64,000 bases of DNA from Escherichia phage vB_EcoM_Skers. Each line of letters begins with the position of its first letter. Positions within the stretch are counted from its first letter, which is position 1. Positions 28,949 through 35,029 of this stretch are shown piece by piece. The notes under the pieces were generated by a model that did not search any database, was not told the DNA's origin, and worked only from the letters and a program-made list of their open reading frames with translations. The translations under genes and the position numbers were made by a program. The DNA lies in sequence record MW748999.1. The stretch is one strand, 5' to 3'.

Positions 28949-31192
28949 TTACAGCTTGCAAGATGAGCACTCGCTAGCGTCTTCCGTACCATCTGCACCG
29001 TCGCGAACGTTCGCATAATACAGGGTTTTCAGACCGTAATGTTGAGCGAACAACATATCATCTAACACATCAGCAATATCGACTTTACCAGTCTTATAAG
29101 TGCTTGGATCATAGGATGTATTGGAACTAATCGCCTGATCTACAAACTTCTGCATGATCGCTGCCAGTGTCAGATAGGGCTTGTTACCTTTCTTGATCAG
29201 TGTCCAAAGCAGGTCAATAACATCAGCATTATTCTCTACGTTCGGAATAACCTGATTAAATTGCCCTTCTTTCGATCCTTTAACCGATACAATCCCGCGA
29301 GGCGGTTCAATACCGTTTGTGCTGTTAGATACCTGAGAAGACGACTCACAAGGCATCAGAGCCGAAAGCGTACTATTACGAATGCCATATTTTTTCAGGT
29401 CTTCGCGCAGTTCTTCCCAATCCATCTCATACACAGGATCAACCAGTTCATCTACTGTCTTTTTGTACCAGTCGATAGGCAGTTCACCGCGTCCATAACG
29501 TGTTTCGTGCATCAGTTCGCAAGCACCCTTCTCTTTAGCCAGTTGCACACTAGCCTTAATCAGAGCATATTGCAAGCGTTCAAACGTTTTATGCGTAAAC
29601 TCGTTAGCGTCTTCATATGTGAAGAAATTATCCGCTAGATATGACGCAAAGTTAGTAACACCAACACCCAGAGAGCGACGTTTTTTGGCTGTCAGAGCTT
29701 GTTCTACAGGATAATCCTGATAATCTAACAGGTTGTCAAGTGCACGCACCATAACCATAGCAATGCGTTCTACTTCTTCCATGTTTTCGATATCGAAATT
29801 ACCTAAAACATATGCTGCCAAAGTACATAGGCTGATCTCTGAATCATCACGCCCCATCGGTTTAGTAGGCAGAGCAATTTCACAACACAGGTTAGATTGT
29901 TTAATTGGTGCTACATTACGAATAAACGCCCCGTGATTGTTCATGTTGTCTGTGAATGTTGGGTAGATTCGACCAGTGTTAAAACGTTCAATTGCCACCG
30001 CTAAAAACAGGTCTTCGGCTTTAACACGAGTTTTACGAACACTCGGATCTTTTTCCAGTTTTTCGTAAAGCTGGCGGAAACCTTCCTCATCTCGGAAGTA
30101 CAGATCCCACAACAAGCCACCTGCAACATCTGGACTAAACAGAGTAATGTAATCCCGTTTAAGGAATCGCTCTACCATCAGGTTATTAATCTGTACGCCG
30201 TAGTCAAGATGGCGAATGCGGTTATCTTCCACGCCCTTATTGTTCTTTAACACAATCAGACTTTCAAACTCTAAATGCCACATTGGGTAATAGAGAGTCG
30301 CCGCCCCGCCACGAATACCGCCTTGTGAGCATGACTTAACGGCAGTCTGAAAATGTTTCCAGAATGGGATAACGCCAGTATGACGAACTTCACCATGCCC
30401 GATCTTAGATCCTTCCGCGCGAATCATGCCAGCGTTGATACCGATACCAGCACGCTTGCTAATATACTTGATGATTGCATTTGCTGTTTCGTTGATGCCC
30501 TGCAATGAGTCATCACTTTCAATCACCACACACGAACTAAATTGTCGTGTTGGAGTACGCACACCCGCCATAATCGGAGTAGGCAGAGAGATTTGCTTAT
30601 TCGCAACAGCATTATAAAAATCAATCACATGTTCAAGTCGATTTTCTGTCTCTTCTTGATGCAAACACATACCAATCAGCATATACGCAAATTGCGGTGT
30701 TTCGATGATTTTCTTAGTGCTGCGATCCTGAACAAGATATTTCTCTTTTAACTGCATCGCACCAGCATAGGTCATTTTAAAATCAAGTTTATGGTCGATG
30801 AATTTCTCCAGATATTCCACTTCTTCACGGGAATATTTTTGCAGAATTTCGCGATCATATTTTCCGGTTGCAATATTACGCTCAATATGGCTATAAAAAT
30901 CAATAGGTTGGAATTGACCGTATACTGATTTACGAAGCGCGAACATTGCAAGGTTACTTGCTACATATTGATAATCAGGCGTTTCTACAGTAATGTTATC
31001 TGCGGCGACCTTAATCAATACTTTCTGGATATCATTGGTAGACATACCTTCTGTCAGAAGTGGTTCAACCATATCAAACAATTCATATGGATCAACGTTA
31101 TGACCTTCGGCTGCCGCTTCCAGAATTTTCATTACTTTTTCTTTTTCAAACGGAACAGTCAGACCGGAAGACTTAACAACATTTTTAATCAT
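28949..31192 (-). CDS. nrdA: Ribonucleotide reductase large subunit (class Ia alpha)
   Basis: 747 aa; ATP-cone N-terminus; C-terminal CSSCKL redox pair. Confidence 0.9.
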   Translation of the reverse strand: MIKNVVKSSGLTVPFEKEKVMKILEAAAEGHNVDPYELFDMVEPLLTEGMSTNDIQKVLIKVAADNITVETPDYQYVASNLAMFALRKSVYGQFQPIDFYSHIERNIATGKYDREILQKYSREEVEYLEKFIDHKLDFKMTYAGAMQLKEKYLVQDRSTKKIIETPQFAYMLIGMCLHQEETENRLEHVIDFYNAVANKQISLPTPIMAGVRTPTRQFSSCVVIESDDSLQGINETANAIIKYISKRAGIGINAGMIRAEGSKIGHGEVRHTGVIPFWKHFQTAVKSCSQGGIRGGAATLYYPMWHLEFESLIVLKNNKGVEDNRIRHLDYGVQINNLMVERFLKRDYITLFSPDVAGGLLWDLYFRDEEGFRQLYEKLEKDPSVRKTRVKAEDLFLAVAIERFNTGRIYPTFTDNMNNHGAFIRNVAPIKQSNLCCEIALPTKPMGRDDSEISLCTLAAYVLGNFDIENMEEVERIAMVMVRALDNLLDYQDYPVEQALTAKKRRSLGVGVTNFASYLADNFFTYEDANEFTHKTFERLQYALIKASVQLAKEKGACELMHETRYGRGELPIDWYKKTVDELVDPVYEMDWEELREDLKKYGIRNSTLSALMPCESSSQVSNSTNGIEPPRGIVSVKGSKEGQFNQVIPNVENNADVIDLLWTLIKKGNKPYLTLAAIMQKFVDQAISSNTSYDPSTYKTGKVDIADVLDDMLFAQHYGLKTLYYANVRDGADGTEDASECSSCKL

Positions 31193-31261
31193 ATTACCTC
31201 ACTTCATATTTTAGCAGGAACAAGTTTATCCTCCATATTGGGGGCTTTCGCCCCCTTTTGT

Positions 31262-32497
31262 TTATACTGCCATTTGAGCGGTGATTGCTGGATGGCTTTG
31301 ATAGTTGTGAATTTTAAAGTCTTTCGGAGTCTTTGTCAATACCTCATCTAAAGACTTAAATTCCGGCAACTCAATTGTTGGTTTATCAAACGGAACACGG
31401 CTTAACTGTTCCATAACTTGATCAAAATGGTTTTTGTAAATGTGGCAATCCCCACACTGATAAACCAGTTCGCCAACTTCTAACCCGCAAATCTTCGCGA
31501 TGATATGCGTTAACAGTGCATAGCTCGCTACGTTGAACGGATTCCCTAAAAAGAGATCATTCGAACGCATGAAAAATAAACAACTCAATTTGTTGTCGTT
31601 GGAAACATAAAACTGTACCATCGGATGACATACACCTAACACAGCATTATGCGTTTCCTGTACGTTCCATGAATCAATGATAATACGACGACTATACGGA
31701 TCATTCTTGATCATGTCAATAACTTTTTGTAACTGGTCTTCCCAAATCTTCGGGCGATAGACATATTCTTCATCGTCTTTAGTGCTTGATGTGTCTACGT
31801 CCATACTAGCAAAGATCGTGGTATCTGGTGCTAAAATATCCCCACCCAGATAATCACTATCAAGCAGATAACCGAAATAACCATCATCTACCCATTCCTG
31901 GAATCCCCACAAGCAATATGCATCATTAACAAAATTAGATTGAGTCTTCCAGTGATCGGCTACTAAGAATTGATTATATTCAGAATCAAACTCTTCATAA
32001 CGCATACCACGCCAGATAGCACATAAACGGTCTTCTGTTTCATTGGTTGGCGTAAAGTCTTCTACCCACGGGTGCTTAAATGTATGTGCATATTTGCTCT
32101 TAACTCGCTTAATTTTGATTTCACCGTGTGGATGAATCGGTTTGCGTCGCCACGCCATACCATACATATTGCCGACATTATAACCATTGAATCGCAAGGG
32201 ATTCTTTTCTTTCATATCAAGACAGTTGCCGCGCCAAATATCAAAGGCTTCCTCGTCAAACTTGCCGCGTGTAATTTCCTGTAAGCGACGGCGGTCAAGT
32301 GATCCCTCCATAAACCATAGCAATTCGCCAATTACAGAGGCTGTAGCCATCTTTTTAGTGGTCAGTAAGGGGAAACCCTTGCTTAAATCAATTCGCATCT
32401 CTGCGCCGAATTTAGAGAGCGTACCTACCCCCGTTCGGTCGTCACGAGGCCAACCATTATCAAGAACATCACGCAATAGTTTCAAATATTCTTTCAT
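31262..32497 (-). CDS. td: Thymidylate synthase with about 115-aa in-frame insertion
   Basis: RDDRTGVGT, catalytic CHPMVQFYV, LGNPFNVASYALL (Asn, dUMP-type); 411 aa versus about 286 aa for T4 Td. Confidence 0.85.
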   Translation of the reverse strand: MKEYLKLLRDVLDNGWPRDDRTGVGTLSKFGAEMRIDLSKGFPLLTTKKMATASVIGELLWFMEGSLDRRRLQEITRGKFDEEAFDIWRGNCLDMKEKNPLRFNGYNVGNMYGMAWRRKPIHPHGEIKIKRVKSKYAHTFKHPWVEDFTPTNETEDRLCAIWRGMRYEEFDSEYNQFLVADHWKTQSNFVNDAYCLWGFQEWVDDGYFGYLLDSDYLGGDILAPDTTIFASMDVDTSSTKDDEEYVYRPKIWEDQLQKVIDMIKNDPYSRRIIIDSWNVQETHNAVLGVCHPMVQFYVSNDNKLSCLFFMRSNDLFLGNPFNVASYALLTHIIAKICGLEVGELVYQCGDCHIYKNHFDQVMEQLSRVPFDKPTIELPEFKSLDEVLTKTPKDFKIHNYQSHPAITAQMAV

Positions 32498-32738
32498 CCC
32501 ACATCACCTTTTTCTTATTGATTGCTTTCTTACGCAGTTTTGCTACTGTCTCGTCAATGTCTATAAAGATAACACCACGGTCGAATACAGTAACAGGTCT
32601 TGAAATGTCGCTATTTTCCTGTACTGGAAGCCATGACGCTTGAGCTTCATCATAGAGATATTGTAAACCGTAATAATCTACGGCTACTGCGTAGTTTTCA
32701 CTGGTAGCTGACCATAATTGAATAATACCGACTTTCAT
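32469..32738 (-). CDS. Hypothetical protein (89 aa)
   Basis: Start trimmed to ATG 32738; TAATG-coupled to a 30-codon CxxC...CxxC micro-ORF (32738..32830). Confidence 0.45.
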   Translation of the reverse strand: MKVGIIQLWSATSENYAVAVDYYGLQYLYDEAQASWLPVQENSDISRPVTVFDRGVIFIDIDETVAKLRKKAINKKKVMWDERIFETIA

Positions 32739-32831
32739 TATTGTTCCCGTCCGCAATGTAAACACCGACTACCAGCAAACATCAAAGATTCACCACAATG
32801 TTTGCACTCATAATCTGTCAGAATTTTCATG

Positions 32832-33401
32832 TTACGCCTTCTTACGTTCTAAAATTTGTTCGCTGATCAGGTAATCATCAAGGAAGTAATTATGTTCTTC
32901 TTTTGTTGCAAAGTCAAAATATAATTCCTGAATCATTTCCTTAGAGATACCAACATCATATTCGAACGGATCATTAATTCCTGCTCGTTGAACATACGTT
33001 AATACAATACGGTCCGCAAAGTCAACCGCTTTTTCAATCAGGGAAGGTCCGCCGATAACACTTACCAAACCTTGCGTTTTCTCTAGGGCTTTTAACAGAT
33101 CCTTCAATTCAATTCCAGTATACACATCAGGTTGGTCGCCGTTTTTAGCTTTCGGTTCTGGCTTGTTGGTATCGGTGCTAACAACCACATTCAAACGTCC
33201 CCAAAGTGCTTTAGGCAGACTTTCAAAGGTATTGCGTCCCATTACTACCGCAGAAAAATCAACCTCACCAATAGTGCGGATTTGAAAGTTTTCCATATCT
33301 TTTTTGATTGGACGACCCCACGGTAAGCCACCTTTAAAACCAAAAGCCCAATTTTCATCCGACATTTTAGTGTTACCAATCGCAAATACACATTGAATCA
33401 T
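32832..33401 (-). CDS. frd: Dihydrofolate reductase
   Basis: GLPWG motif; start trimmed to ATG 33401 with SD AGGAG (track used upstream TTG). Confidence 0.85.
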   Translation of the reverse strand: MIQCVFAIGNTKMSDENWAFGFKGGLPWGRPIKKDMENFQIRTIGEVDFSAVVMGRNTFESLPKALWGRLNVVVSTDTNKPEPKAKNGDQPDVYTGIELKDLLKALEKTQGLVSVIGGPSLIEKAVDFADRIVLTYVQRAGINDPFEYDVGISKEMIQELYFDFATKEEHNYFLDDYLISEQILERKKA

Positions 33402-33415
33402 AATATAATCTCCTG

Positions 33416-33745
33416 TCAAATCAGTTTAAAGAAGTTTTCGTTTACATTTTCTTCTGTGATCTCGGTTTTAAATTCATTACCATCATCGGGAGAAACATAA
33501 TAGCGTTCGGAATAATCACGCCACATTTTCAGTAAGCTGACACCAACATTAACACCGTTTTCCCAGAAACGGAATACAATTTTATGTGCGGTGTAACGAT
33601 AATCACTTTGAATTAAGCTGCCATCCCCGCGACGAGATTCATAAACCGTAATACAATCGCGGTTAGCGGCGTTAAGACATTCTTCAATAGTCCCGCATGA
33701 GACAATTTCGGTTGATTCGTCTACGATTTTTTCTACTGTCCACAT
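33416..33745 (-). CDS. Hypothetical protein (109 aa)
   Basis: ORF with SD GAGGA downstream of PeSL. Confidence 0.55.
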   Translation of the reverse strand: MWTVEKIVDESTEIVSCGTIEECLNAANRDCITVYESRRGDGSLIQSDYRYTAHKIVFRFWENGVNVGVSLLKMWRDYSERYYVSPDDGNEFKTEITEENVNENFFKLI

Positions 33746-33776: not shown

Positions 33777-33804
33777 ATTATACACTGTTGCGTTACGCTG
33801 TCAA
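33777..33804 (-). promoter_or_regulatory. PeSL-type early promoter (no palindrome)
   Basis: TTGACA-N16-TATAAT. Confidence 0.6.
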
Positions 33805-34971
33805 CTCTTTTTCAAAAGATTTTACGATATACATGATAGTGCTCAATTCAGACGGCGCTACTGTCTCTGTCCAGCCATCCGGCATATCTTCTTTCGAGAT
33901 ATAGGAAGTTTTACCTTTCATCGCTTCCTTGATTTTGTTTTCTAATTCTAAGATCTTTTGACCATCTTGTAAAGTCAATTCATAAAAGATCTCGTGATCG
34001 AACTTTGAAACACGAGATTGGTTTCTCATGCGCTCATGTGTTTCTTTGTTTGTTATTCCAAATTTCACGCCAACAAAGGAATCATTGTTGGTTAATTTCT
34101 GTATATAAAGAGTTCCTGTCTTTAATGCCTGATAACCATGCTTAGAACACAACGGGCAGCGTGTTCCGCGATTAACAAAATTATCAATAGTTACAACCCA
34201 TTCATGGTTACGTTCGCATGTCAGAAGTATTCTTGTTAATGCACCTTTCCACTTTCCTGAAATCCCAATAAATTTTAGTCTGTTGGTTTCGCATATTTTT
34301 TCAATTTGTTTTAATCGGTCACTTTTTGTTATTGGTGCTGTTCCGCTACATTTGTGACACCGACGACCTAGTTTGAACTTATCATAACTTTGTTCGTAAA
34401 TGTGATTATTAGGACACTCAAATTTAAGTTTAGTTTTTGTTCCTTTCCATTCCCCAATTATACCCAAAAATTTATAATCTCCTTTATTTTCATTTATATA
34501 AGATAAGGAATCTTCTTTATCATACATCTTGCCACCGTTACATAAAGGACATCTTGTTTTTTGATGAATGAAATCTGTATATGTTGGTTGGTATGTGTGT
34601 CCGTTTGCACAGTTCATAATGAGTCTTGTTCTGCTATTTTTATACTCCCCACCAACAAAACCAACAAATACATCGTTTGTTTCTTGTTTTATTCTTTCTA
34701 TCACATGGTTTAGGTTTAATCTTTGAGAATCAACCACACATTTCTTACACGAAACTTTTTTCCTGATATTTGCTAGAGTTGATGTGTATTCATGCTTGTT
34801 ATTACATAATATAAGAGCTTTTGTTTTGAGACCAGACCATTCTCCAACAAACCCCATGAAAGAATAACCAACTTCCAAACATGAATTTTTTACAACATTT
34901 TCCCAATAGAAGGGAGTTTTCGTGTTTCCTTTTATTTCTATACGAATCTCATGTGCTTGACGTACTAACAT
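33793..34971 (-). CDS. Repeat protein: four zinc-ribbon-like repeats plus C-terminal GIY-YIG-like (T5orf172-type) domain
   Basis: Four ~60-aa repeats F.G..GEW.G..T...C.N.H...(x)...RC..C; C-terminal GTLYIQ...VKFGITNKETHERM...HEIFYEL...GWTE; start trimmed to ATG 34971. Confidence 0.5.
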   Translation of the reverse strand: MLVRQAHEIRIEIKGNTKTPFYWENVVKNSCLEVGYSFMGFVGEWSGLKTKALILCNNKHEYTSTLANIRKKVSCKKCVVDSQRLNLNHVIERIKQETNDVFVGFVGGEYKNSRTRLIMNCANGHTYQPTYTDFIHQKTRCPLCNGGKMYDKEDSLSYINENKGDYKFLGIIGEWKGTKTKLKFECPNNHIYEQSYDKFKLGRRCHKCSGTAPITKSDRLKQIEKICETNRLKFIGISGKWKGALTRILLTCERNHEWVVTIDNFVNRGTRCPLCSKHGYQALKTGTLYIQKLTNNDSFVGVKFGITNKETHERMRNQSRVSKFDHEIFYELTLQDGQKILELENKIKEAMKGKTSYISKEDMPDGWTETVAPSELSTIMYIVKSFEKELTA

Positions 34972-35001
34972 AATTTTATCCTCCTTTGTTTCGATGTTTG
35001 T

Positions 35002-35029
35002 ATTATACATCCTAACATCAGCATGTCAA
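35002..35029 (-). promoter_or_regulatory. PeSL-type early promoter (no palindrome)
   Basis: TTGACA-N16-TATAAT. Confidence 0.6.

What the first reader, a model, noticed from the sequence alone, without database searches (positions are those of the whole stretch)
31262..32497. Thymidylate synthase with a ~115-residue in-frame insertion, no intron
The ORF has all thymidylate synthase core motifs and a C-terminus like recalled T4 Td, but is 411 aa. The extra residues (about KPIHPHGEIK...YRPKIWE) lie between the YG.AWRR segment and the DQLQKVI helix, the same surface region where some bacterial enzymes carry a shorter insert. The junctions lack intein hallmarks (no Cys/Ser at the N-junction, no His-Asn plus Cys/Ser/Thr at the C-junction). 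Unlike T4 td there is no group I intron; the reading frame is continuous. The insert may be an added domain.
Basis: partly seen in the sequence, partly recalled or inferred. Interest (0 to 1): 0.45.

Follow-up and report, generated by a model that had tools for sequence, protein, structure and literature searches.

The report
Thymidylate synthase with relic endonuclease-like domain
This phage thymidylate synthase gene carries, in frame and unspliced, a shrunken remnant of a homing-endonuclease-like element that has entered the same loop of thymidylate synthase in many phage lineages and that, in some giant phages, has clearly moved recently between genomes.

Summary
ORF 31262..32497 on the minus strand encodes a 411-aa thymidylate synthase (TS) with all catalytic residues and 135 extra residues (119-253) between the YGMAWRR motif and the DQLQKVI helix. 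There is no intron, no intein and no assembly error: 58 Krischvirus (RB49-like) genomes carry the same gene.

The insert is a confidently predicted folded domain (pLDDT above 90) under purifying selection (dN/dS about 0.1-0.3). It is homologous to a very large phage family annotated only as 'HNH/homing endonuclease', with no Pfam model and no solved structure. At least 76 other TS clusters carry longer versions (about 245-280 aa) at exactly this site. These longer versions add an N-terminal beta module and an I-HmuI NUMOD-like helix-turn-helix.

The window's copy has lost both accessory modules and the family's conserved Arg-Cys, Gly-rich, Lys, Cys and Asn positions, and it is acidic. It is most likely an inactive relic.

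In Asteriusvirus jumbo phages, two of about 40 genomes hold different inserts flanked by foreign TS sequence inside otherwise about 90-97% identical DNA. That is the pattern expected from homing. An unspliced in-frame mobile insertion in an essential enzyme appears to be undescribed.

The parts
31262..32497 (-). td/thyA gene: 411-aa thymidylate synthase including stop codon
   Evidence: Lies in a frd - small ORF - td - nrdA cluster.
32144..32497 (-). N-terminal TS core, residues 1-118 (DRTG phosphate-binding Arg21, Glu58, Trp88, Tyr112, ending YGMAWRR)
   Evidence: Aligns to solved TS structures over residues 3-88. Invariant columns in A2.
31739..32143 (-). In-frame insert, residues 119-253: a reduced homologue of the phage 'HNH/homing endonuclease'-annotated module
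   Evidence: tblastn to the KP13-7 ThyA insert at 4e-12. An HMM built from 64 non-TS proteins scores 33-36 bits, against 9.3 bits for the best of 2000 shuffles. AF2 pLDDT is above 90. dN/dS about 0.1-0.3.
32108..32122 (-). Outgoing stalk strand EIKIK (residues 126-130)
   Evidence: Predicted strand 126-130. The P.G....(K/R)R motif is conserved only in insert-bearing TSs. Its pairing with strand 245-249 is inferred.
31988..32035 (-). Long helix EDRLCAIWRGMRYEEF (155-170). It keeps the family's W162 and M165, but the family's R-C-Y is E168-E169-F170.
31811..31867 (-). Degenerate two-strand motif: LLDSD (family L-D-K-D) ... LAPDTTIF (family Y-S-P-x-T-C-x-F). The following family Asn is Asp235.
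   Evidence: Strands 210-213 and 228-231 in the model.
31751..31765 (-). Returning stalk strand YVYRP (245-249), leading into KIWE-DQL
   Evidence: Predicted strand 245-249. The (V/I)xRPxI motif is conserved in insert-bearing TSs.
31265..31738 (-). C-terminal TS core, residues 254-411 (Arg270-Arg271, catalytic Cys290-His291, Arg311-Ser312-x-Asp314, Asn322, Asp350-x-His352-x-Tyr354)
   Evidence: Aligns to solved TS structures over 254-411. Invariant columns.
31448..31732 (-). Mosaic patch (codons ~256-350) starting just after the insert: 50-80% nt identity to RB49 while the rest of the gene is 93-100% identical

Best explanation
The gene encodes a working thymidylate synthase. One surface hairpin (E. 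coli loop WRAW-PTPDGRHI-DQ) has been opened by an in-frame insertion that stays in the mature protein as a separate folded domain on a two-strand stalk.

The insert descends from a homing-endonuclease-like phage module. In full form this module has an N-terminal beta module, a central W..M..RCY / LDKD / YSP.TC / N domain, and a NUMOD-like helix-turn-helix. It enters this exact TS site and spreads between phage genomes by gene conversion, carrying a few hundred bases of flanking TS sequence with it.

In the Krischvirus lineage the element is fixed and has decayed. Both accessory modules and the conserved polar, Cys and Gly positions are gone, and the domain has turned acidic. Only the hydrophobic core of the central domain remains. 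It therefore most likely no longer binds or cuts DNA. It is probably kept because it is now part of the fold of an essential enzyme, or has a secondary structural role.

Shown: the anatomy, the homology, the fold confidence, the purifying selection, the sporadic distribution and the chimeric alleles in relatives.

Inferred: that spread was endonuclease-driven, that the window copy is inactive, and why it is retained.
For: TS identity and intact catalytic residues.

Same site, graded sizes (126-283 aa) in 29 insert-bearing TSs.

Homology to the module:
- KP13-7 ThyA insert at 4e-12 and D69 at 1e-5.
- The KP13-7 and D69 inserts hit PHROG 2081/953/374 'HNH endonuclease' at 1e-32 to 1e-13.
- A non-circular HMM from 64 non-TS proteins scores the window at 33-36 bits, against at most 9.3 bits for 2000 shuffles.
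- BFVD structural matches to other inserted viral TSs and to proteins named homing endonuclease.
- The P0052 insert contains PF22083 I-HmuI NUMOD-like above its cutoff.

Family size: 30,565 representative clusters. 76 of the top 147 are complete TSs with the insert.

Folded domain: pLDDT 95.3 and pTM 0.93 for the whole protein, 92.2 for the insert alone.

Selection: dN/dS about 0.1-0.3.

Decay: conserved R-C-Y, G.G..G, K of D-K-D, Y-S..T-C and N are replaced, while W162, M165, V179, W183, F189, D192, L212 and F229 are kept. Net charge is -11 and pI 4.8, against pI 8.3-9.5 for most long inserts.

Mobility in relatives:
- UE-S1 TS is 97% identical to 121Q over nt 1-274 and 91% over the last 251 nt, but its middle is KP13-7-like.
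- ph0011 has a different insert with foreign flanks inside DNA 86-91% identical to 121Q.
- About 40 related jumbo phages lack any insert.
- The P0047 core is 81% identical to an uninserted TS but at most 66% to any other inserted one.
Against: - The window insert's direct hit to PHROG 2081 is weak (E 0.1).
- The AF2 alignments included the long homologues, which may inflate confidence.
- In Krischvirus the insert is present in all 58 genomes, so there is no mobility signal in this lineage itself.
- Purifying selection fits a gained function as well as a structural constraint.
- The chimeric alleles in jumbo phages show recombination but do not show which enzyme, if any, made the break.
Confidence: 0.68

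Rival explanations
1. The insert is a domesticated domain with a new function in Krischvirus. Examples would be a docking surface for partners of the dNTP-synthesis complex (DHFR, RNR, dCMP deaminase), a regulator of TS, or an acidic nucleic-acid mimic. On this reading it is kept by selection for that function rather than as a structural relic.
For: - Purifying selection on the insert: dN/dS about 0.1-0.3 across 8 Krischvirus genes.
- Fixed in all 58 genomes.
- Rigid, confident placement on the core: pTM 0.93.
- A marked shift to acidic charge, net -11, which could be adaptive.
- Independent lineages have all reduced the element to the same central domain instead of deleting it: P0007/13, P0017/18, P0003-6, Krischvirus.
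Against: - No partner, motif or ligand site can be named.
- Selection on the insert is weaker than on the core, which shows 0.01-0.07 within an allele group.
- A 4-codon indel is tolerated inside the insert.
- Retention of only the hydrophobic core residues is what pure fold maintenance predicts.
Confidence: 0.22
2. The window's insert is still an active site-specific endonuclease or DNA-binding module. It is expressed as part of TS and drives its own spread or excludes competing phages.
For: - It belongs to a family whose members are named homing endonucleases.
- Free-standing members sit in typical homing contexts. For example, alia gp039 lies directly after a CDS annotated DNA polymerase 'part I'.
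- A divergent recombination patch starts within about 10 nt of the insert's 3' junction in Krischvirus alleles.
Against: - It lacks the N-terminal beta module and the NUMOD-like HTH of the long forms.
- Nearly all family-conserved polar, Cys and Gly positions are replaced.
- The domain is strongly acidic.
- There is no presence/absence polymorphism in Krischvirus.
Confidence: 0.05
3. The extra segment is removed before the enzyme is made, by RNA splicing (group I intron as in T4 td), protein splicing (intein) or ribosomal bypass. Alternatively, it is a sequencing or assembly artefact.
For: T4 td has a group I intron, and phage nucleotide-metabolism genes often hold introns and inteins (PMC2988022). 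Nothing in this sequence supports it.
Against: - No Rfam intron match.
- The frame stays open for 135 codons (P about 1e-4) with a codon-level excess of synonymous change.
- No Hint or intein domain, no Cys/Ser/Thr at either junction.
- The model shows a continuous stalk into and out of the domain.
- 58 independently sequenced genomes agree.
Confidence: 0.02

Closest known systems
Thymidylate synthase ThyA/Td (Pfam PF00303, TIGR03284), including T4 Td
   Same: Full catalytic core with all invariant residues, the same frd-td-nrdA gene neighbourhood as T4-like phages, and the C-terminal ...MAV.
   Different: 411 aa instead of about 264-320. A 135-residue foreign domain sits in the loop after the YG.QWR motif. 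There is no intron, unlike T4 td.
Long bacterial TS (L. casei, S. aureus, E. faecalis type) with a ~50-residue small-domain insert; eukaryotic TS loop inserts
   Same: Tolerated surface insertions in the same general face of the enzyme.
   Different: The bacterial insert lies upstream of the YG.QWR motif: S. aureus has only 8 residues between QWRDW and DQL. It is helical filler with no relation to mobile elements. The eukaryotic insert at the present site is only about 8 residues (my knowledge).
PHROG families 2081, 953 and 374 ('HNH endonuclease'): free-standing phage proteins such as Escherichia phage alia gp039 and Vibrio phage 466E53-1 P0077
   Same: They share the central domain W..M..RCY ... 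V.VC..W..F.NF..D ... LDKD ... YSP.TC.F ... N. Predicted structures are similar.
   Different: Those proteins are stand-alone genes, often with AP2-like or HTH tails, and keep the conserved polar and Cys residues. The window copy is embedded in an enzyme, truncated and degenerate. None has been tested experimentally, and there is no Pfam or NCBIfam model.
Homing-endonuclease elements of phage nucleotide-metabolism genes: the T4 td intron with I-TevI, HNH inteins, and free-standing mobE (the literature also describes a mobE homologue that splits nrdA in Aeromonas phage Aeh1)
   Same: The same class of target genes. Related phages differ in whether they carry the element. Flanking host-gene sequence is transferred along with it (PMC2988022, PMC2790892).
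   Different: Known elements avoid harming the host gene by RNA splicing, protein splicing, lying between genes, or splitting the gene into two subunits. Here the element is translated through and kept as a domain of the enzyme.
PacI restriction endonuclease (PDB 3M7K), a minimal HNH enzyme
   Different: The score is weak and identity is 10%. Foldseek finds no PDB match. The window lacks any plausible catalytic or zinc ligands.

Membership tests
Thymidylate synthase (ThyA/Td) | Whole-protein match to curated family models above their thresholds | tested here: met
   PF00303 at 280.9 bits (cutoff 24.3). TIGR03284 at 276.5 bits (cutoff 108.35).
Thymidylate synthase (ThyA/Td) | Catalytic and substrate-binding residues (Arg21, Glu58, Tyr112, Arg270-Arg271, Cys290-His291, Arg311-Ser312, Asp314, Asn322, His352, Tyr354) | tested here: met
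   All are invariant or nearly invariant columns (90% or more) of the 62-sequence alignment and all are present in the window protein.
Thymidylate synthase (ThyA/Td) | dUMP to dTMP activity | not testable with these tools
   Needs a thyA complementation or an enzyme assay.
Intein | Cys/Ser at the N-junction, His-Asn plus Cys/Ser/Thr at the C-junction, Hint fold | tested here: not met
   The junctions are R118|K119 and E253|D254. No Hint or intein Pfam hit in the window or in the long homologues. The junction residues of all 29 inserted TSs lack these hallmarks.
Group I intron (as in T4 td) | Ribozyme structure; interruption of the reading frame | tested here: not met
   No Rfam intron at E up to 1 in 30500-33500. 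The ORF is continuous, with a synonymous excess.
Phage 'HNH/homing endonuclease'-annotated module (PHROG 2081/953/374) | Significant sequence similarity to family members outside TS | tested here: met
   An HMM from 64 non-TS proteins scores 32.7-35.8 bits over residues 128-245, against a shuffle maximum of 9.3 bits. The direct PHROG 2081 hit is only E 0.1. The transitive link through KP13-7 is 4e-12 then 1e-32.
Phage 'HNH/homing endonuclease'-annotated module (PHROG 2081/953/374) | Family-conserved polar positions: R-C-Y, G.G..G, D-K-D, Y-S..T-C, N | tested here: not met
   The window has E-E-F, K.P..E, D-S-D, L-A..T-T, D. It is a member by descent but a degenerate one.
HNH (beta-beta-alpha-metal) nuclease superfamily | Beta-beta-alpha-metal fold with catalytic His and Asn/His metal ligands | tested here: inconclusive
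Homing (mobile) element | Sporadic presence among close relatives, with co-transferred flanking sequence | tested here: met
   Met for the long relatives. UE-S1 and ph0011 carry inserts while about 40 Asteriusvirus-like genomes do not, and the chimeric tracts can be mapped. P0047, P0048 and P0052 are nested among uninserted TSs. Not seen in Krischvirus, where all 58 genomes carry the insert.
Homing (mobile) element | Element-encoded site-specific endonuclease that cleaves the empty site | not testable with these tools
   Needs cleavage assays and mixed infections.

The most novel reading that the evidence does not exclude
The long TS inserts (KP13-7, UE-S1, ph0011, D69 and dozens of metagenomic clusters) are a so far undescribed way of life for a homing element. 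On this reading, an endonuclease-like gene has no intron, intein or intergenic refuge. It lives as a permanently translated domain inside a permissive loop of an essential enzyme, yields a bifunctional TS-endonuclease, and spreads by break-induced gene conversion. The Krischvirus insert is its fossil, and shows the end state of such an invasion when precise excision is not available.
Probability: 0.4. Interest if true: 0.8.

Novelty: new variant of a known kind. Interest (0 to 1): 0.62.

Why it matters
Homing elements are thought to persist in essential genes only because splicing (RNA or protein), gene splitting or an intergenic position hides them from selection. These TS alleles suggest a further solution: insertion as a tolerated extra domain.

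If confirmed, three things would follow.
- It would add a category to the catalogue of selfish elements.
- It would explain a widespread annotation oddity: inserted TSs are labelled 'hypothetical protein' or 'HNH endonuclease'.
- It would give a natural series, from about 280 aa down to about 126 aa, that shows how an invading gene is whittled into a harmless or useful protein domain.

For enzymology, it identifies a TS loop that accepts insertions of up to about 280 residues.

Tried and rejected
- The word-indexed protein search with the insert alone found nothing, which is a limit of the index.
- Pfam, NCBIfam and PDB sequence searches of the insert and of free-standing relatives found nothing.
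- Foldseek against the PDB found nothing. The afdb50 library was unavailable.
- The large non-TS proteins carrying the module were scanned to see whether other enzymes host it. No host family was recognisable.
- I looked for insert-free close relatives of Vibrio phage D69. None are in the collection.
- Literature searches with terms for RB49 td, inserted TS, and in-frame or unspliced homing endonucleases found no description of this feature. The RB49 genome paper (PMC135041) is not held.
- Intron, intein, artefact and ribosomal-bypass readings were considered and rejected (see rivals).
- The idea that the insert occupies the L. casei-type insert site was rejected from the S. aureus alignment.

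Full report
**1. What is there**

The ORF at 31262..32497 lies on the minus strand and encodes 411 residues from an ATG. The plus-strand reading is full of stops.

It sits in a T4-like nucleotide-metabolism cluster. DHFR is at 32832..33419, a small ORF overlaps the td start, and nrdA is at 28949..31192, all on the minus strand.

The protein matches Pfam Thymidylat_synt over residues 2-411 (1e-83). It also passes the NCBIfam equivalog TIGR03284 (276 bits, cutoff 108).

Solved TS structures align only to residues 3-88 and 254-411. In alignments with 61 relatives, the extra segment is residues 119-253 (nt 31739-32143), between YGMAWRR and DQLQKVI. All residues known to be needed for catalysis are present and sit in invariant or nearly invariant columns.

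The window is a Krischvirus (RB49/JSE/Phi1-like coliphage). 58 phage records carry the same 407-411-aa gene at 92-98% identity. An assembly error or frameshift is therefore excluded.

**2. It is translated and not spliced out**

- No RNA family or intron is detected in 30500-33500.
- A stop-free run of 135 codons has a chance of about 1e-4 at this composition.
- Comparison of eight Krischvirus td genes gives dN/dS of about 0.1-0.3 in the insert for most pairs. This is purifying selection, though weaker than in the core (0.01-0.07 within an allele group).
- The junctions (R118|K119, E253|D254) lack intein residues. No Hint domain is found here or in longer homologues.

**3. It is a folded domain**

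AlphaFold2 with a 62-sequence alignment gives mean pLDDT 95.3 and pTM 0.93 for the whole protein. The insert itself is above 90 almost throughout. The one dip, to 78, is at residues 171-180, where Krischvirus genes differ by a 4-codon indel. The insert modelled alone gives pLDDT 92.2.

The predicted order of elements is:
- a strand at 126-130
- a long helix at 153-170
- three short helices
- two strands at 210-213 and 228-231
- a strand at 245-249 just before the DQL helix

I read strands 126-130 and 245-249 as a stalk; this is an inference from sequence order. A caveat is that the alignments contained the longer homologues.

**4. What the insert is**

A tblastn search with the insert alone hits the thymidylate synthase of Klebsiella jumbo phage KP13-7 (E 4e-12) and a Vibrio phage D69 protein annotated 'HNH endonuclease' (E 1e-5). 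It also gives weak hits to free-standing 'HNH endonuclease' or 'DNA-binding' genes.

Translation shows that the KP13-7 (517 aa) and D69 (477 aa) proteins are themselves TS or TS-like, with larger inserts at the same place. Those inserts match PHROG families 2081, 953 and 374 ('HNH endonuclease') at 1e-32 to 1e-13. Two free-standing proteins (alia gp039 and Vibrio 466E53-1 P0077) belong to PHROG 953 at e-74 and e-63. Alia gp039 lies directly after a CDS annotated DNA polymerase 'part I'.

A search with the whole Td returned 26 further insert-bearing TSs of 401-554 aa. In the alignment of 28 sequences, all inserts occupy one site and form a size series of about 126-145, 175-200 and 244-283 residues.

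The full form has three parts:
- an N-terminal beta-rich module
- a central domain with the motifs Y..W..M..RCY, V.VC..W..F.NF..D, LDKD, YSP.TC.F and N
- a C-terminal segment that in P0052 matches Pfam PF22083, the I-HmuI NUMOD-like domain, above its cutoff

To avoid circularity, I built an HMM only from 64 non-TS proteins. It matches window residues 128-245 with 33-36 bits, whereas the best of 2,000 shuffles of the insert scores 9.3 bits.

Predicted viral structures similar to the insert model include other inserted TSs and proteins named homing endonuclease.

The family is very large. It has 30,565 representative clusters at E of 1e-3 or better, and 76 of the top 147 are complete TSs carrying the insert.

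**5. The window copy is a decayed version**

Relative to the full form, it lacks the N-terminal module and the NUMOD-like segment.

Among 180 family domains, the strongly conserved positions R-C-Y, G.G..G, the Lys of D-K-D, Y-S..T-C and N are E168-E169-F170, K.P..E, S214, L222-A223..T226-T227 and D235 in the window. The hydrophobic positions W162, M165, V179, W183, F189, D192, L212 and F229 are kept.

The insert has net charge -11 (pI 4.8). Most long inserts are basic, with pI 8.3-9.5.

This pattern, with fold-keeping residues retained and candidate ligand or DNA-contact residues lost, is what an inactive relic looks like.

Reduction to the same central domain happened in several branches of the TS tree: Krischvirus with P0003-6, P0007/13 next to the KP13-7 group, and P0017/18.

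**6. Evidence that the element moves**

In a neighbour-joining tree of TS cores, the window's clade consists only of inserted TSs. Its nearest uninserted core is 56-57% identical.

Other inserted TSs are nested among uninserted ones. The P0047 core is 81% identical to an uninserted TS and at most 66% to any other inserted one. P0048 shows 75% against 64%.

The clearest cases are in Asteriusvirus jumbo phages.

- The TS gene of UE-S1 is 97% identical to that of 121Q over nt 1-274 and 91% over its last 251 nt. The 1,030 nt between are foreign and resemble the Klebsiella phage KP13-7 gene. They comprise the insert plus about 80 nt of upstream and about 230 nt of downstream TS sequence.
- Phage ph0011 has a different insert, again with foreign TS flanks (codons 56 to about 466), inside DNA that is 86-91% identical to 121Q and fully syntenic.
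- About 40 related genomes have no insert.

Two independent arrivals, each with a limited tract of donor flank, is the pattern produced by break-induced gene conversion in homing (general principle: PMC2988022, PMC2790892). Which nuclease made the break is not shown.

**7. Comparison with known things**

The host protein is an ordinary ThyA/Td.

The insert is not the 50-residue insert of the long bacterial enzymes. That insert lies before the YG.QWR motif: S. aureus TS has only 8 residues between QWRDW and DQL.

The closest concept is a homing element in a phage nucleotide-metabolism gene. The known forms are introns, inteins, free-standing genes and gene-splitting insertions. I found no description of a translated, unspliced, internal in-frame form in the searchable literature, which is incomplete.

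**8. Verdict**

Best explanation, confidence about 0.68: an active TS carrying a fixed, degenerate, probably inactive remnant of a homing-endonuclease-like element that targets this TS loop.

The main rival, about 0.22, is that the remnant has acquired a function of its own.

The feature in the window is a new variant of a known kind. The wider phenomenon it points to could be a new mode of residence for selfish elements.

Noticed in passing
window 31448-31732 (td codons ~256-350): There is a mosaic patch. Against RB49, the td gene is 93-100% identical in 60-nt windows, except for about 290 nt starting within about 10 nt of the insert's 3' junction, where identity falls to 50-80% (about 45 amino-acid changes). 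KFS-EC and JSE share the window's version. RB49, ECD7, Phi1, JK32 and SFHK24 share the other. The window version (FFMRSNDLFLGNPFN, GDCHIY) resembles the TS flanks that travel with inserts in other phages. The RB49 version looks like ordinary TS (QRSVD, GGDTHIY). The donor is not in my set (best 73-78%).
   Followed up: partly
window 31973-31984 (td codons 172-175, SEYN): A four-codon indel lies inside the insert. It is present in the window, KFS-EC, RB49, ECD7 and SFHK24, and absent in JSE, Phi1 and JK32. It coincides with the only dip in model confidence within the insert (pLDDT 78).
   Followed up: partly
window 33793-35010 (-): A 405-aa ORF two ORFs beyond frd on the minus strand has four CapR homology domains (treble-clef zinc fingers; Pfam PF21817 at 2.7e-29, and PF14311). 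Its RB49 counterpart may be the ORF listed in 2006 only as a weak DUF723 match; I did not check that correspondence. The C-terminal third has no Pfam hit. It could be another mobile or defence-related gene.
   Followed up: partly
window 32469-32765 (-): A 98-aa ORF with no family match overlaps the td start by 29 nt. It is conserved as a 'hypothetical protein' upstream of td in all Krischvirus records inspected.
   Followed up: no
L014 3001-4641 (Escherichia phage ph0011) and L002 2638-4071 (Vibrio phage D69): Inserted TS genes are mis-annotated in public records: ph0011's is labelled 'hypothetical protein' and D69's 'HNH endonuclease'. The D69 protein also departs from TS consensus at several core positions (TRSG for DRTG, SRY for SRR, KDAH for GDAH), so it may not be a canonical TS.
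   Followed up: partly
L003 2372-2968 (Escherichia phage alia gp039): A free-standing member of the module family lies immediately after a CDS annotated DNA polymerase 'part I'. That suggests a polymerase gene split by a homing-type insertion. Its C-terminal part looks AP2-like by eye.
   Followed up: no
P0122, P0131, P0133, P0140, P0159, P0180, P0241 (metagenomic proteins of 565-724 aa): These large proteins carry one or two copies of the module but have no Pfam domain at all. What they are is unknown.
   Followed up: partly
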